Source: a virus
Taxonomy: Duplodnaviria; Caudoviricetes
Length of the DNA stretch: 59,155 nucleotides
IMG/VR virus record: IMGVR_UViG_3300020468_000007
Span: 1 to 59,155 of that record
Reading direction: 5' to 3' (one strand)
A model generated the notes under the pieces. It searched no databases and had not been told where the DNA came from. It saw only the letters and a list, made by a program, of their open reading frames with translations. Numbering within the stretch: the stretch's first letter is position 1; each line of letters begins with the position of its first letter. The position numbers and the translations under genes were made by a program. This document shows positions 29,584-47,550 of the stretch, piece by piece.

Positions 29584-29660
29584 CGTTACAAACGTTACAA
29601 ACGTTACAAACGTTACCCAGTAAGGGTTGTAGCTGTAACACTTCTGTAACGTTGTAACAC
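29584..29660. repeat. Iteron-like tandem and inverted GTTAC repeats (candidate replication origin)
   Basis: (CGTTACAAA)x3+CGTTAC at 29584-29616, then three inverted TGTAAC at 29634-29660; AT-rich tract upstream; at divergent strand switch. Confidence 0.7.
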
Positions 29661-30279: not shown

Positions 30280-30622
30280 AAACCGCACTGGTGAAGGAAT
30301 GCCGGACGTATACCTATGCATGAATGGTGTGCCAGTGTGGCTGGAATTAAAAATAGTTAAAAATGGCAGGGTTAGCCTGTCAAAATCACAGATTGCGTGG
30401 CATTCCTCACATTTTAGATGTAAAGGCGTAAGTTTTTTCTTGCTGCACGACCCCTTGACCAGCGACCTATTTTTATTTGGCGCGGACAAAGCGATCGAGT
30501 TGCTAGGTTCGAGGATCGATGACCTGCGGCCTGCGGCCTTGTATATCGGTGATATGCGCGGCCTGATTGAGAGCCTGCGGCCTGCGGCCTGCGCCCTATG
30601 GTCTGATGCCATGAGTCGATGA
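30203..30622 (+). CDS. VRR-NUC / Holliday-junction-resolvase-like nuclease
   Basis: ERIEN..GEGMPDV...WLELK...SQIAWH. Confidence 0.75.
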   Translation: MPKTERSLWTLLKQNLPKKTHFERIENRTGEGMPDVYLCMNGVPVWLELKIVKNGRVSLSKSQIAWHSSHFRCKGVSFFLLHDPLTSDLFLFGADKAIELLGSRIDDLRPAALYIGDMRGLIESLRPAACALWSDAMSR

Positions 30623-30639
30623 CCTGCGGCCTGCGGCCT
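30516..30639 (+). repeat. CCTGCGG heptamer repeat cluster 1
   Basis: CCTGCGGCCTGCGGCCT at 30523, 30574, 30623; exact 24-bp repeat 30516-30539 = 30616-30639. Confidence 0.95.
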
Positions 30640-30653
30640 AGGTCCTATGGATA

Positions 30654-30695
30654 TATAAAAAAAGAAATCCCCTGCCAGCAAAGCTGGCAGGGGAT
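30654..30695 (-). terminator. Intrinsic terminator of the early island
   Basis: 13-bp stem ATCCCCTGCCAGC-TTT-GCTGGCAGGGGAT followed on minus strand by TTCTTTTTTT. Confidence 0.85.
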
Positions 30696-30706
30696 CAGGG
30701 GAAACC

Positions 30707-31526: not shown

Positions 31527-31536
31527 CAATAATTTC

Positions 31537-31602
31537 CCTGCGGCCTGCGGCCTTGTTCCTCTTTTTATATATACAACGGCCTGCGGCCTGCGGCCTTGTT
31601 CC
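31537..31602 (+). repeat. CCTGCGG heptamer repeat cluster 2
   Basis: Exact 23-bp repeat CCTGCGGCCTGCGGCCTTGTTCC at 31537-31559 and 31580-31602. Confidence 0.95.
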
Positions 31603-31612
31603 CCTGTATATA

Positions 31613-31654
31613 TAAAAAAAGAAAAGAGGATCGAGCACCGTGGCGCTCGATCCT
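31613..31654 (-). terminator. Intrinsic terminator
   Basis: Minus AGGATCGAGCGC-CACG-GTGCTCGATCCT then CTTTTCTTTTTTT. Confidence 0.8.
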
Positions 31655-32329: not shown

Positions 32330-32518
32330 TTACCCCCTTAAAAATTCATCTAGAAGAATGATAGAGCCAGTCATAACAGCACCAGCCCCAACGAATGCCA
32401 TCCAGCCATTGTCTACTTGCCACCAGCTAGTAATGAACAATGCGGTCAATACTATCAGCGAGGCATAGAACAGGCCGACAAGCCCGACAAACTTTATTCC
32501 TGTAACGATACTATTCAT
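32330..32518 (-). CDS. Small two-TM membrane protein (first gene after the ribozyme)
   Basis: 62 aa with two hydrophobic segments; AAGGGG RBS. Confidence 0.65.
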   Translation of the reverse strand: MNSIVTGIKFVGLVGLFYASLIVLTALFITSWWQVDNGWMAFVGAGAVMTGSIILLDEFLRG

Positions 32519-32540
32519 TTTAATCCCCTTCTATTTGATT

Positions 32541-32593
32541 TACCGTTTCGGCCTCTTGGCCTCATCAGCGACAGCACACACTGCCGGACGGTA
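32541..32593 (-). ncRNA. Type III hammerhead ribozyme
   Basis: Minus RNA UACCGUC/CGGCAG-UGUGUG-CUGUCG-CUGAUGA-GGCC-AAGA-GGCC-GAA-ACGGUA: full CUGAUGA and GAAA core, GUC cleavage triplet, stems I (6 bp), II (4 bp), III (6 bp) all pair; intergenic. Confidence 0.93.
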
Positions 32594-32610
32594 GGGGGCG
32601 GATGCCCCCT
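32593..32610 (-). other. GC hairpin immediately 5' of the ribozyme
   Basis: Minus AGGGGGC-AUCC-GCCCCCU, 5 nt after upstream stop, no U-tract. Confidence 0.75.
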
Positions 32611-32615
32611 TGTTT

Positions 32616-32819
32616 TTAATCCTCCTCTTCGTTCCAGACCGTCACCATTTTATATTGAAGATTTTCCAAGTCAGTTTGGATATCTTCGATATTGCCGGAT
32701 AAATCCTCACACCAGTGTCCACTATCTTGTAAGACATTCTCGATTATTTCCAATGCATGGTCTACCTTGTCATTGGCTAGTGCGACTTCGTGAAGGATGC
32801 TTTGTAATGTTCTTGTCAT
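32616..32819 (-). CDS. Hypothetical acidic early protein
   Basis: 67 aa; AAGGGG RBS. Confidence 0.65.
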   Translation of the reverse strand: MTRTLQSILHEVALANDKVDHALEIIENVLQDSGHWCEDLSGNIEDIQTDLENLQYKMVTVWNEEED

Positions 32820-32831
32820 TGTTTTGTCCCC

Positions 32832-33107
32832 TTATGCGACGTTAGAAATAACAGTCTTTCCAGACTTGATTGTGTACACCGTACCAGCTTCGAGCTTCAT
32901 ACGACGGACGTTGGACTTACCAGCCTCGAGCATTTCAGCAGCAATAGAGTAATCGATGAACGTGATCACGTTCGGCTGGTCATCGGTTAGCCGATCGTCG
33001 GCAATAACCTGACCGTATGCATGACGCAAGCTGCCATCGGCTTTTGTGAATGTAGCAGTGAACAAGCGACCGCCAAGCTGCTCGATGATTTGGTTTCTTA
33101 AAGTCAT
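32832..33107 (-). CDS. Hypothetical early protein (SH3/WYL-like beta barrel)
   Basis: FTATFTKADGSLR motif; first gene of the early island. Confidence 0.65.
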   Translation of the reverse strand: MTLRNQIIEQLGGRLFTATFTKADGSLRHAYGQVIADDRLTDDQPNVITFIDYSIAAEMLEAGKSNVRRMKLEAGTVYTIKSGKTVISNVA

Positions 33108-33140
33108 ATCTAATCCCCTTATATTTGATTTGATATGATT

Positions 33141-33178
33141 ATCTTAACTATATTTTTCATATAATCAAATAAAAAATG
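33141..33178 (-). promoter_or_regulatory. Candidate early promoter
   Basis: Minus TTGATT-N16-TAAGAT with T-rich upstream tract. Confidence 0.5.
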
Positions 33179-33310
33179 CATAAAAACCGAGTAAATCGTC
33201 GGTTTTTTGGGGTTACTGGCATCGATCGGCAGTCAGTTTTCGAGCAGCGCGACCCCCTACCCCCTATTTTTTTGGGATAGTCTATTGACATACGGTCGCA
33301 TTTTGCTGGG

Positions 33311-33339
33311 TTGATAAATTCATTGCTGAGTATTATCAT
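33311..33339 (+). promoter_or_regulatory. Candidate sigma70 promoter of terL (leaderless)
   Basis: TTGATA-N17-TATCAT; ATG begins 7 nt after the -10 box; no SD. Confidence 0.55.
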
Positions 33340-33345
33340 TCGGGC

Positions 33346-46061: not shown

Positions 46062-46973
46062 ATGGCTATTTCTCGCGCACAACTCGCCAAAGAACTAGAG
46101 CCCGGTCTAAACGCTCTCTTTGGAATGGAATATGACCGATACGAAGGTCAGCATGCTGAAATCTTTGACACCGAGTCTTCTGACCGGGCGTTTGAAGAAG
46201 AGGTGATGTTGTCAGGTTTCGGTGCCGCACCTGTCAAGGGTGAGGGCACAGGTGTCACTTTTGATGATGCCAACGAAGCTTACACTGCTCGTTACAACCA
46301 CGAGACAGTGGCAATGGCCTTCTCAATCACTGAAGAAGCAGTTGAGGACAATCTCTATGATCGTCTTGCTTCTCGGTACACTCGTGCCCTTGCTCGTTCA
46401 ATGGCACACACAAAGCAGGTTAAAGCTGCCGCAGTTCTTAACAATGCATTCTCCGCTGGCGCATTTGCTGGTGGTGACGGTGTTGCTCTCTGCGCCACTA
46501 ACCACCCGCTAACAAGCGGCGGCACATTCGCTAACGAGCCAGCAACTGCTGCTGACCTGAATGAGACTTCTCTTGAAGACTCACTTATCAGCATCGCTGG
46601 TTTCACTGACGAGCGCGGTTTGATCATTGCCCTTAAAGGCATGAAGCTTATCGTTCCTCGCCAGCTTCAGTTTGTTGCCGAGCGTCTTATGGTATCAAAC
46701 CTTCGGGTAGGTACAGCAGACAACGACACAAACGCATTGCGCTCAATGGGCATGCTTCCAGACGGTTATGTAGTCAACGACTTCCTAACTGATACAGACG
46801 CATTCTTCATTAAGACTGATGCACCAAATGGCTTCAAGCACTTTGAGCGTTTGGCTCTGTCAACTGCAATGGACCCAGATTTCGACACTGGCAACATGCG
46901 GTACAAAGCTCGTGAGCGTTACAGCTTCGGCTTTTCAGACCCTCGCGCAGTGTTCGGTTCACCGGGCGCATAA
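46062..46973 (+). CDS. Major capsid protein (HK97 fold, Mu gpT-like)
   Basis: MAISRAQLAKELEPGLNALFG...ITEEAVEDNLY...DFDTGNMRYKARERYSFG. Confidence 0.9.
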   Translation: MAISRAQLAKELEPGLNALFGMEYDRYEGQHAEIFDTESSDRAFEEEVMLSGFGAAPVKGEGTGVTFDDANEAYTARYNHETVAMAFSITEEAVEDNLYDRLASRYTRALARSMAHTKQVKAAAVLNNAFSAGAFAGGDGVALCATNHPLTSGGTFANEPATAADLNETSLEDSLISIAGFTDERGLIIALKGMKLIVPRQLQFVAERLMVSNLRVGTADNDTNALRSMGMLPDGYVVNDFLTDTDAFFIKTDAPNGFKHFERLALSTAMDPDFDTGNMRYKARERYSFGFSDPRAVFGSPGA

Positions 46974-47038: not shown

Positions 47039-47082
47039 TCCTGACAACTGCATGGTGCGGTTGACACTAGCCACGACAGGAG
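47039..47082 (+). promoter_or_regulatory. Candidate structured 5' leader sequestering the RBS
   Basis: TCCTG...CAGGA outer pairing includes the AGGAG SD; inner 8-bp hairpin CAACTGCA-TGG-TGCGGTTG. Confidence 0.45.
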
Positions 47083-47088
47083 ACTTAA

Positions 47089-47550
47089 ATGGCTACTACC
47101 ACTTTCTCCGGTCCTATTAAGGCCGGAACTATCAAGAACACAACAGGCACGACTCTAGGCTCAAACATCGCTAACGTCGGTCAGGTTGTTATGGCTCAGA
47201 CATTTTCAGCAGACTTATCAGGCGGTGCTCTAGCTGCTCAAGTCACTGACGTTGTTATCCCTGCAAACTCTCAGATTATTGACTGTGTGATTGACGTCAT
47301 TACAGCAGCTAACACTTCTACCAATCTTAGTGTCGGTGACACTGTAGGTGGCGCAGCTACAATTCTGAACACATTTGCAAGCGGAACAACTGCTGGTCGT
47401 AAGTACCCGACAACTCAGGCTGGTGCTGCATTAGCTTGGCAGGATACTGGTACAGCAGACATTCGTTTGACTGTGACTGCTTCTGCCGCAACAAACGCAG
47501 GTCTTGTTCGTTTTACAATTCTGTACCAGCAAAATAACAACCTTGCTTAA
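47089..47550 (+). CDS. Putative capsid-associated/decoration protein
   Basis: MATTTFSGPIKAG...IPANSQII; follows MCP. Confidence 0.6.
   Translation: MATTTFSGPIKAGTIKNTTGTTLGSNIANVGQVVMAQTFSADLSGGALAAQVTDVVIPANSQIIDCVIDVITAANTSTNLSVGDTVGGAATILNTFASGTTAGRKYPTTQAGAALAWQDTGTADIRLTVTASAATNAGLVRFTILYQQNNNLA

What the first reader, a model, noticed from the sequence alone, without database searches (positions are those of the whole stretch)
32541..32593. Complete type III hammerhead ribozyme inside the phage early operon
Seen: the minus-strand RNA reads UACCGUC-CGGCAG-UGUGUG-CUGUCG-CUGAUGA-GGCC-AAGA-GGCC-GAAACGGUA. UACCGU pairs with ACGGUA (stem III), CGGCAG with CUGUCG (stem I, one G-U) and GGCC with GGCC (stem II). 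It lies wholly in an intergenic gap on the sense strand of flanking genes. Established: CUGANGA, GAAA and a GUC triplet form the hammerhead catalytic core; capped stems I/II with open stem III define type III; a UG-starting loop 1 with an A-ending loop 2 resembles loop-loop contacts of natural fast hammerheads. Hammerheads have been reported in phage and bacterial intergenic DNA, but their role there is poorly understood. Inference: the transcript self-cleaves between window positions 32587 and 32586.
Basis: partly seen in the sequence, partly recalled or inferred. Interest (0 to 1): 0.92.

Follow-up and report, generated by a model that had tools for sequence, protein, structure and literature searches.

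The report
Hammerhead ribozyme between phage early genes
A small self-cutting RNA (a type III hammerhead ribozyme) sits between two tiny early genes of an uncultured marine phage, preceded by a stable hairpin; it is a real, conserved element, but of a kind already known from phages.

Summary
The minus strand at 32541-32593 carries a complete type III hammerhead: GUC site, CUGAUGA, GAAA and three stems. Rfam RF00008 matches at 42.3 bits, E 7e-6 for the whole window, below the curated cut-off of 48.5.

Selection is clear. The same element lies at the same place in 16 of 67 related terminase loci that reach far enough upstream. All three stems show compensatory changes and the core is almost invariant. 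The 200-nt flanks are unrelated in 13 of 17 loci.

New detail: a stable hairpin abuts the 5' side in 81 of 96 non-redundant copies, against 178 of 908 control positions. A Shine-Dalgarno leader and a start codon follow about 22 nt downstream.

Best reading: co-transcriptional self-cleavage splits the early polycistronic mRNA. The upstream piece ends in a protective hairpin, and the downstream piece gets a fixed structured leader. Neither cleavage nor transcription was shown; the RNA-library contigs were uninformative.

Phage hammerheads that flank small variable genes were described in 2011 (PMC3088659). This is a new member of a known kind, of moderate interest.

The parts
32541..32593 (-). 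Type III hammerhead ribozyme. Stem III is 32588-32593 with 32541-32546. C17 is at 32587, with predicted cleavage between 32587 and 32586. Stem I is 32581-32586 with 32569-32574, and loop 1 is 32575-32580. The CUGAUGA core is 32562-32568. Stem II is 32558-32561 with 32550-32553, and loop 2 is 32554-32557. GAAA is 32546-32549.
   Evidence: Sequence; RF00008 at 42.3 bits, E 7.1e-6; own covariance model at 85.8 bits; covariation; RNAalifold predicts the same junction.
32594..32609 (-). Stable 6-bp G+C hairpin (GGGGGC-AUCC-GCCCCC) that touches the 5' end of stem III with no spacer. [quoted passage not shown]
   Evidence: A hairpin of at least 5 bp in this position is present in 81 of 96 non-redundant relatives against 178 of 908 random positions, with 64 distinct sequences. 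It is also kept in relatives that lack the hammerhead.
32519..32540 (-). 22-nt leader between the hammerhead and the next start codon, with a Shine-Dalgarno-like AAGGGG at 32525-32530.
   Evidence: A 20-of-21 repeat of it at 33111-33131 forms the leader of the first early gene. Its predicted accessibility is 0.84 both before and after cleavage.
32616..32819 (-). Upstream ORF (67 aa, no family match). Its stop codon at 32616-32618 lies 6 nt before the hairpin.
   Evidence: Protein-level homologues in L001, L002, L007, L012 and L081.
32330..32518 (-). Downstream ORF (62 aa, hydrophobic, no family match).
   Evidence: Homologues in L001, L020, L023 and L081; in L020 and L023 there is no hammerhead in front.
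32832..33107 (-). First ORF of the minus-strand early arm (91 aa, phrog_2267, weak WYL_2-like match).
33111..33131 (-). Leader of the first early gene, a near-copy of the spacer after the hammerhead. An A+T-rich region with -10-like hexamers lies upstream of it.
   Evidence: Repeat family D5; sequence.
31627..31654 (-). Intrinsic-terminator-like hairpin with a T run on the minus strand. It is the likely end of the first early transcription unit that holds the hammerhead.

Best explanation
This is a genuine type III hammerhead ribozyme under selection, encoded on the sense strand of the first early transcription unit of an uncultured marine tailed phage.

Inferred mechanism: RNA polymerase transcribes from the divergent promoter region near 33110-33340 towards the terminator at 31654-31627. 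The hammerhead folds as soon as its 3' strand of stem III emerges. It then cuts itself after C32587.

The 5' product carries the first two small genes. It ends in a 2',3'-cyclic phosphate only 7 nt past a very stable hairpin, which should block 3' exonucleases.

The 3' product carries the remaining small genes. It starts with a 5'-OH followed by the stem I and stem II hairpins and a fixed 22-nt Shine-Dalgarno leader. That gives the next cistron a defined 5' end that does not depend on what lies upstream.

The unit of hairpin, hammerhead and leader thus works as an RNase-independent processing and insulating joint between interchangeable early gene cassettes. It uncouples the stability and translation of the two halves of the operon.

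Shown here: the motif, its conservation, the covariation, the strand, the hairpin association and the mosaic flanks. Inferred: transcription, cleavage, and the effects on stability and translation.
For: Motif and score.

Homologues at the same place: among 82 sources, the window and 17 loci score 68.9-87.2 bits with model R1, and the next best match is 17.1 bits. 16 of the 67 terminase-related loci with at least 1000 nt upstream carry it, 516-1155 nt before the terminase start and always on the opposite strand.

Covariation, close set: 97.3% of cells are paired, 9 of 16 pairs changed on both sides, and 0 of 500 shuffles reach this. RNAalifold finds the same junction on its own.

Covariation, wide set: among 98 distinct sequences 93.8% of cells are paired, stem I is 100% paired with all four Watson-Crick types, and 14 of 16 pairs changed on both sides.

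Strand: G-U pairs occur in stems I and II, including the window's own stem I. They would be C-A mismatches on the other strand.

Core: the site is GUC in 92 of 96 copies and the core is CUGANGA in 95 of 96.

Hairpin: 81 of 96 against 178 of 908 controls. The offset is 0 nt in 62 of the 81, there are 64 distinct sequences, and the mean 30-nt folding energy is -12.9 against -3.6 kcal/mol.

Mosaic flanks: the hammerhead is 75-100% identical while the 200-nt flanks are about 50% identical (random level) in 13 of 17 loci. L001 has 98% and 93% identical flanks but a hammerhead only 81% identical, with compensatory swaps. The flanking proteins differ between loci.

Relatives without the hammerhead (L020, L023) keep hairpin plus Shine-Dalgarno at the same junction.

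The post-hammerhead leader repeats the leader of the first early gene.

Literature: multiple hammerheads flank variable small genes in prophages, three such arrangements (Clostridium scindens, Azorhizobium caulinodans, Agrobacterium tumefaciens) cleaved during in vitro transcription, the Agrobacterium one also after cloning in E. coli, and processing of long phage transcripts was proposed (PMC3088659, section 6 read; PMC6765202, passages).
Against: There is no direct evidence of transcription or cleavage. The only RNA-library data were assembled contigs, and these break inside the element in the DNA library as well.

The Rfam score is below the curated cut-off.

The single-sequence folding energy is not exceptional (z -1.32).

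In 136-231-nt contexts the minimum-energy fold replaces stem III by pairing with the downstream coding region, so activity depends on co-transcriptional folding.

51 of 67 related loci lack the element. No other Rfam ribozyme was found in 22 of these that were scanned. Three cultured relatives have no match. The element is therefore dispensable.

Predicted Shine-Dalgarno accessibility does not change on cleavage, so no translational switch is predicted.

In bacterial genomes the hairpin association is weaker: 9 of 21 against 44 of about 200 controls.

A 5'-OH end could destabilise rather than stabilise the RNA in hosts that have RNase J (recalled knowledge).
Confidence: 0.62

Rival explanations
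1. Attenuator reading. The hammerhead is active, but its purpose is to lower expression of the genes behind it. The 5'-OH product would be degraded quickly (as with glmS and RNase J1), or would lose coupling to upstream translation. The first two genes would then outlast the rest of the unit.
For: The position after the first two ORFs of the early unit. A hairpin that would selectively protect the upstream fragment. The glmS precedent is summarised in PMC6765202 (passages).
Against: The 3' product begins with two stable hairpins and keeps an accessible Shine-Dalgarno sequence. That looks like a stabilised, translatable leader. The leader copies that of the first early gene. In multi-copy relatives nearly every cassette is followed by another hammerhead, which fits general processing better than shut-off of everything downstream.
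Confidence: 0.15
2. Recombination-joint or selfish-element reading. The conserved block of about 80 nt (hammerhead plus leader) persists mainly because it offers a patch of homology at which gene cassettes are swapped between co-infecting phages, or because it spreads on its own. RNA cleavage would be secondary.
For: Conserved element between unrelated flanks in 13 of 17 loci. Contigs from four libraries, DNA and RNA, branch inside the element into alternative flanks. 25 of 78 pattern-scan loci share a protein with this phage and the multi-copy loci share none, so the element crosses phage groups. Distribution is patchy, 16 of 67.
Against: DNA homology alone would not preserve base pairing through compensatory changes, strand-specific G-U pairs, or an invariant catalytic core. 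L001 shows the hammerhead diverging while pairing is kept and the flanks stay nearly identical. The two roles are not exclusive.
Confidence: 0.12
3. Excision or circularisation reading. Paired hammerheads cut out cassette RNAs whose 5'-OH and cyclic-phosphate ends are joined, for example by RtcB, into circular or spliced RNAs.
For: 22 of 78 pattern-scan loci carry 2-5 copies on one strand. The possibility is raised in PMC3088659.
Against: This window has a single copy. The authors of PMC3088659 report that they could not detect spliced or circular products.
Confidence: 0.04
4. Chance match or decayed, inactive relic.
For: Rfam score below the gathering cut-off. Unremarkable folding z-score. 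One relative allele (L011 and L012) has the core changed to CUGAAGC.
Against: E 7.1e-6. Covariation in all three stems and a consensus core in 95 of 96 non-redundant copies.
Confidence: 0.04

Closest known systems
Prophage- and phage-associated hammerheads that flank small variable genes (Perreault et al. 2011, PMC3088659: Agrobacterium tumefaciens ardA triple arrangement, Clostridium scindens, Azorhizobium caulinodans; intergenic examples in phages PaP3 and Bcep176)
   Same: Consensus hammerhead in intergenic gaps of polycistronic phage transcripts. The neighbouring genes are small and not constant. Multi-copy arrangements exist in relatives. A processing role has been proposed.
   Different: Here there is a single type III copy in the early arm of an uncultured marine phage of about 59 kb. 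It has a stable hairpin abutting the 5' side and a fixed Shine-Dalgarno leader. I did not find that architecture described in the passages I read; the supplements were not visible. There is no biochemical test here.
Rfam RF00008 Hammerhead_3 (type III hammerheads)
   Same: Same core, same open-stem-III topology, full-length match to model positions 1-54.
   Different: 42.3 bits against a gathering score of 48.5. Relative to the model, loop 1 is 5 nt longer and loop 2 is 4 nt shorter. The context is an mRNA of a DNA phage. That the Rfam seed is dominated by viroid, satellite and plant sequences is recalled, not checked.
HHphage of haloviruses HF1 and HF2 (PMC3088659, discussion passages)
   Same: A hammerhead a few nucleotides (13) upstream of the start codon of a phage gene (an ATP-dependent DNA helicase).
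   Different: HHphage has an atypical two-nucleotide insertion in the core and comes from high-salt hosts. The present core is canonical.
RiboJ-type synthetic ribozyme insulators (hammerhead plus hairpin placed before a ribosome-binding site)
   Same: Works alike, by inference. Self-cleavage removes the upstream context and leaves a standard structured leader before the ribosome-binding site.
   Different: RiboJ is an engineered part with its extra hairpin on the 3' side. Here the conserved hairpin is on the 5' side and stays with the upstream fragment. My knowledge of the RiboJ design is recalled; only a search listing was seen.
Intercistronic stabiliser hairpins with endonucleolytic processing in bacterial operons (recalled textbook cases)
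   Same: A stable hairpin at the end of a cistron that becomes the protected 3' end after a cut just downstream. Relatives without the hammerhead keep only the hairpin.
   Different: The cut would be made by the RNA itself rather than by a host RNase.

Membership tests
Hammerhead ribozyme, type III topology (structural class) | Conserved core: C3-U4-G5-A6-N7-G8-A9 and G12-A13-A14 | tested here: met
   CUGAUGA at 32568-32562 and GAA at 32549-32547. CUGANGA is present in 95 of 96 non-redundant relatives.
Hammerhead ribozyme, type III topology (structural class) | Cleavage triplet N-U-H, with U16.1 paired to A15.1 | tested here: met
   GUC at 32589-32587. The U32588-A32546 pair is invariant in 14 of 14 distinct close sequences and 98 of 98 wider ones.
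Hammerhead ribozyme, type III topology (structural class) | Three helices around the core, supported by covariation | tested here: met
   9 of 16 pairs (close set) and 14 of 16 pairs (wide set) changed on both sides. Caveats: the close set was picked by a script that required pairing, and the wide set came from a pattern that fixed part of stem III and was aligned to the model.
Hammerhead ribozyme, type III topology (structural class) | Stems I and II capped by loops, stem III open | tested here: met
Hammerhead ribozyme, type III topology (structural class) | Tertiary contact between loops 1 and 2 that gives fast cleavage at low Mg2+ | tested here: inconclusive
   The first U of loop 1 and the last A of loop 2 are invariant in 16 of 16. 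The 7-bp/4-bp stem combination occurs in 66 of 96. No Watson-Crick complementarity between the loops was seen, and a 3D contact cannot be tested here.
Hammerhead ribozyme, type III topology (structural class) | Site-specific self-cleavage giving 2',3'-cyclic phosphate and 5'-OH ends | not testable with these tools
   Only assembled contigs of the RNA libraries were available.
Rfam RF00008 Hammerhead_3 (curated model hit) | Bit score at or above the gathering score of 48.5 | tested here: not met
   42.3 bits, E 7.1e-6. This is a cut-off of one model, not a structural feature of the ribozyme class. I therefore file the element under the structural class, not as a curated Rfam hit.
Intrinsic (Rho-independent) terminator, considered for the hairpin at 32594-32609 | G+C-rich hairpin followed by a U run on the transcribed strand | tested here: not met
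   On the minus (sense) strand the hairpin is followed by UACCGUC, not by a U run. On the plus strand it does score as terminator-like, but the matching A run upstream is absent in most relatives' hairpins.

The most novel reading that the evidence does not exclude
Hairpin, hammerhead and Shine-Dalgarno leader together form a portable 'cistron joint', a natural counterpart of engineered ribozyme insulators. Marine phages of several lineages would use it to make shuffled early gene cassettes express independently of their neighbours. The joint would also serve as the homology patch at which those cassettes are exchanged. On this reading the 5' hairpin is an integral functional part (a 3'-end protector and a coaxial support of the short stem III) and not a bystander. 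If so, this would give the long-unexplained phage hammerheads a concrete, testable role.
Probability: 0.3. Interest if true: 0.6.

Novelty: new member of a known kind. Interest (0 to 1): 0.38.

Why it matters
The biological role of the many hammerheads in bacteria and phages is still described as an open question (PMC6765202 and PMC6155905, passages).

This locus adds no new kind of element. The comparative set around it gives a sharper and testable picture in four respects:
- the ribozyme is kept while the genes on both sides are swapped;
- it sits in a fixed order of stop codon, stable hairpin, ribozyme, leader and start codon;
- relatives without it keep the hairpin alone;
- the leader copies that of the primary transcript.

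Together these point to RNase-independent processing and insulation of early gene cassettes. A few reporter constructs could test this. The finding also shows that the default Rfam gathering scan misses this abundant marine phage subgroup.

Tried and rejected
- Rfam at gathering thresholds lists only Mu-gpT-DE and not the hammerhead. The hammerhead appears only in E-value mode.
- The single-sequence folding z-score (-1.32) is not informative for so short an RNA.
- blastn of the 77-nt element against 50,697 phage records gave no match.
- Model R1 on three cultured relatives' whole records (MN698241, OR003939, MW574966) matched 0 of 3. That tool warns that an empty answer shows little.
- I looked for another ribozyme class at the same place in relatives without the hammerhead. 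There was none in 7 loci at E <= 0.05 or in 15 loci at gathering scores. The two weak sRNA matches are below their cut-offs and I treat them as chance.
- Expression: three metatranscriptome libraries hold the region, but only as Logan contigs. Their contigs stop at 32568/32570 and at 32594-32599. So do those of the DNA library X7, with alternative flanks as loose ends. This is assembly-graph branching at a shared repeat. It is evidence neither for cleavage nor for transcription.
- Translational switch idea (cleavage frees the Shine-Dalgarno sequence): rejected. The predicted unpaired probability is 0.84 before and after cleavage.
- Plus-strand terminator idea for the hairpin: the window's T run is not conserved in relatives.
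- The genome contigs pattern scan was mostly noise. 60 of 82 pattern hits do not form stems I and II. By my own arithmetic about 80 chance hits are expected in 596 Gb.
- Host assignment was not attempted beyond noting distant terminase similarity to Pelagibacter phages and to a lake phage.
- Supplements of PMC3088659 (its sequence alignments) could not be opened. They may already contain members of this marine subgroup or show the flanking hairpin.

Full report
**What is in the sequence.**
- UACCGU (32593-32588) pairs with ACGGUA (32546-32541) as stem III.
- C32587 is the unpaired cleavage-site nucleotide.
- CGGCAG pairs with CUGUCG as stem I, with one G-U pair. It is capped by UGUGUG.
- CUGAUGA (32568-32562) follows.
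- GGCC pairs with GGCC as stem II, capped by AAGA.
- GAAA closes the core.

The element fills most of a 97-nt gap between two minus-strand ORFs, 32616-32819 (67 aa) and 32330-32518 (62 aa). The predicted scissile bond, between 32587 and 32586, is placed correctly.

**Is it more than chance?** A default Rfam scan at gathering scores does not list it. In E-value mode it is a full-length match to RF00008 Hammerhead_3 at 42.3 bits. That gives E 6.6e-8 for the 551-nt neighbourhood and 7.1e-6 for the whole window on both strands. The gathering score is 48.5. The minimum-energy fold of 66 nt is the expected three-way junction, but its energy is not unusual (z -1.32). No other ribozyme match is present in the window at E <= 0.1.

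**Context.** The window is a complete-looking virus record of 59,155 bases (CheckV 100%). The plus-strand arm encodes large terminase, portal, major head, virion and tail-fibre proteins. The minus-strand arm runs from small unknown ORFs to helicases, a primase and a family-A-like DNA polymerase. The hammerhead lies on the sense strand of that early/replication arm, after its first two ORFs. An intrinsic-terminator-like hairpin with a T run at 31654-31627 probably ends the first unit. Only the terminase DNA shows distant similarity (66-69%) to cultured phages: Pelagibacter phages HTVC027P and HTVC023P, DSL-LC04 and 023Pt_psg01. R1 matched none of the three of these whose whole records were searched (HTVC023P was not searched).

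**Relatives.** The terminase protein retrieved 80 IMG/VR loci at 83-100% identity, and an exact 32-nt search added L081.
- A descriptor script found a type III hammerhead on the strand opposite the terminase in 15 loci plus the window.
- A covariance model built from these found the window and 17 loci at 68.9-87.2 bits among 82 sources. The next best match scored 17.1 bits.
- The two added loci (L011 and L012, identical) have the core changed to CUGAAGC.
- Of the 67 terminase loci that extend at least 1000 nt upstream, 16 carry the element, 516-1155 nt before the terminase start. It is therefore an accessory, patchily distributed feature.
- In 22 hammerhead-less relatives no other Rfam ribozyme was found.

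**Covariation.** In the close set (14 distinct sequences) 97.3% of cells pair. 9 of 16 pairs changed on both sides, no shuffle of 500 reaches this, and slid registers give 22-50% pairing. These rows were chosen by a script that demanded pairing, which inflates the paired percentage. RNAalifold predicts the same junction independently.

The model then found 112 matches in 76 of the 78 new loci. On the 98 distinct sequences:
- stem I is 100% paired, with all four Watson-Crick types at every position;
- 14 of 16 pairs changed on both sides;
- the covariation score is 0.716 against 0.177 for shuffles. This alignment is fitted to the model, and part of stem III was fixed by the pattern.

G-U pairs in stems I and II, including the window's own, identify the minus strand as the selected RNA strand. 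Among 96 parsed non-redundant copies the site is GUC in 92 and the core is CUGANGA in 95. L001 is telling. Its terminase is 100% identical and its 200-nt flanks are 98% and 93% identical to the window. Its hammerhead is only 81% identical, and the differences in stems I and II are compensatory.

**Architecture.** A stable hairpin directly precedes the ribozyme. In the window it is GGGGGC-AUCC-GCCCCC at 32609-32594. It starts 6 nt after the stop codon of the upstream ORF and touches the first nucleotide of stem III.
- Across 96 non-redundant copies, a hairpin of at least 5 bp ends 0-4 nt before stem III in 81 (offset 0 in 62). At random positions of the same loci the figure is 178 of 908.
- The mean folding energy of the preceding 30 nt is -12.9 against -3.6 kcal/mol.
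- There are 64 distinct hairpin sequences, many with UUCG or GAAA loops. The structure is conserved, not the sequence.
- On the plus strand the window's hairpin scores as terminator-like, but the required A run is not conserved in relatives.

Downstream, a start codon usually follows within about 12-25 nt. In the window there are 22 nt with AAGGGG 6 nt before the AUG. That leader (32521-32541) is repeated with 20 of 21 identical bases at 33111-33131, where it is the leader of the first early gene, behind an A+T-rich promoter-like region. Relatives that have a homologue of the downstream gene but no hammerhead (L020, L023) keep a hairpin followed at once by a Shine-Dalgarno sequence and the start codon. 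The ribozyme therefore looks like an insert between an intercistronic hairpin and the next leader.

**Mosaicism.** The proteins on either side differ among the loci that share the ribozyme. The ribozyme is 75-100% identical while the 200-nt flanks are at the random level (about 50%) in 13 of 17 loci. Contigs of four libraries, three RNA and one DNA, branch inside the element into alternative flanks. Only 25 of the 78 pattern-scan loci share any of seven proteins with this phage, and none of the 15 multi-copy loci I listed does. 22 of the 78 carry 2-5 copies on one strand. The module is thus shared among different phage lineages, as was described for prophages in 2011 (PMC3088659, section 6 read).

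**Mechanism.** The best-supported reading is co-transcriptional self-cleavage that splits the early polycistronic RNA. Co-transcriptional folding is needed because, in 136-231-nt contexts, the minimum-energy fold pairs the 3' strand of stem III with the downstream coding region instead.

After the cut, the upstream RNA ends in a cyclic phosphate 7 nt past a strong hairpin. From general knowledge of 3' exonucleases, that should stabilise it. The downstream RNA begins with a 5'-OH, two hairpins and a standard leader. The predicted accessibility of its Shine-Dalgarno sequence is unchanged by cleavage (0.84). This argues for insulation and processing rather than a switch. None of these steps was observed, because the RNA-library data were contigs only.

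Rivals are down-regulation of the downstream genes, a mainly DNA-level recombination joint, RNA excision or circularisation (not applicable to a single copy), and an inactive relic.

**Comparison with the literature.**
- Perreault et al. 2011 (PMC3088659; section 6 and passages read) reported hundreds of bacterial hammerheads near prophage genes. [quoted passage not shown]
- Reviews state that the role remains open and that the link to phages is persistent (PMC6765202 and PMC6155905, passages).
- I found no description of the abutting 5' hairpin in the passages of PMC3088659 that contain 'hairpin', 'terminator', 'stem III' or 'upstream of'. Nothing on it appeared in four other full-text searches. 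The supplements were closed, so I claim no priority.
- A 2026 paper reports that self-cleavage in the 5' UTRs of RNA viruses of fungi and plants can drive translation initiation (PMC13725137, abstract only). This is a distant functional parallel.

**Verdict.** This is a new member of a known kind. The comparative detail, the order hairpin, ribozyme, leader at mosaic cassette joints, is useful but modest. Interest is 0.38.

Noticed in passing
window 47039-47091 (+): Full-length Rfam Mu-gpT-DE RNA (RF03012, 68.3 bits, E 9e-14). It lies between the major-head-protein-like ORF 46062-46973 and the ORF 47089-47550, and its 3' end overlaps that ORF's start codon.
   Followed up: no
window 30516-30667 and 31530-31624 (+ coordinates): Five copies of a repeat with the core CCTGCGGCCTGCGGCCT. 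Some extend to 45 nt with an A/T-rich tail. They form two clusters that sit just downstream (in the minus-strand sense) of the two terminator-like hairpins at 30666-30696 and 31627-31654. They could be phage promoters or regulator sites of the next early units.
   Followed up: partly
window 29584-29616: Tandem 9-nt repeat CGTTACAAA, with three overlapping 15-nt copies.
   Followed up: no
L111, L102, L089, L129, L110, L151, L123, L120, L095 and others (IMG/VR loci): A+T-rich viral contigs unrelated to this phage carry 2-5 hammerheads of the same build on one strand, each preceded by a hairpin of the GGAGUGUC...GACACUCC type.
   Followed up: partly
e.g. L120:64-120, L110:9882-9938, L111:11267-11323, L151:5380-5436: Fifteen of the 111 non-redundant copies failed my parser. 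Most of them belong to a subclass with a U-U or A-A mismatch at the first stem II pair (10.1-11.1), often with a GUU or GUA site, though some keep GUC. Thirteen of 98 distinct sequences lack the G-C pair there.
   Followed up: no
L011:697-753 and L012:3419-3475: An allele of the same hammerhead has the core changed to CUGAAGC (position 9 is C), while the stems and hairpin are intact. It may be an inactivated or slowed copy.
   Followed up: no
window 33182-33207 (-): Terminator-like hairpin with a T run on the minus strand, inside the divergent control region and upstream of the first early gene. It is followed by an A+T-rich stretch with -10-like hexamers.
   Followed up: no
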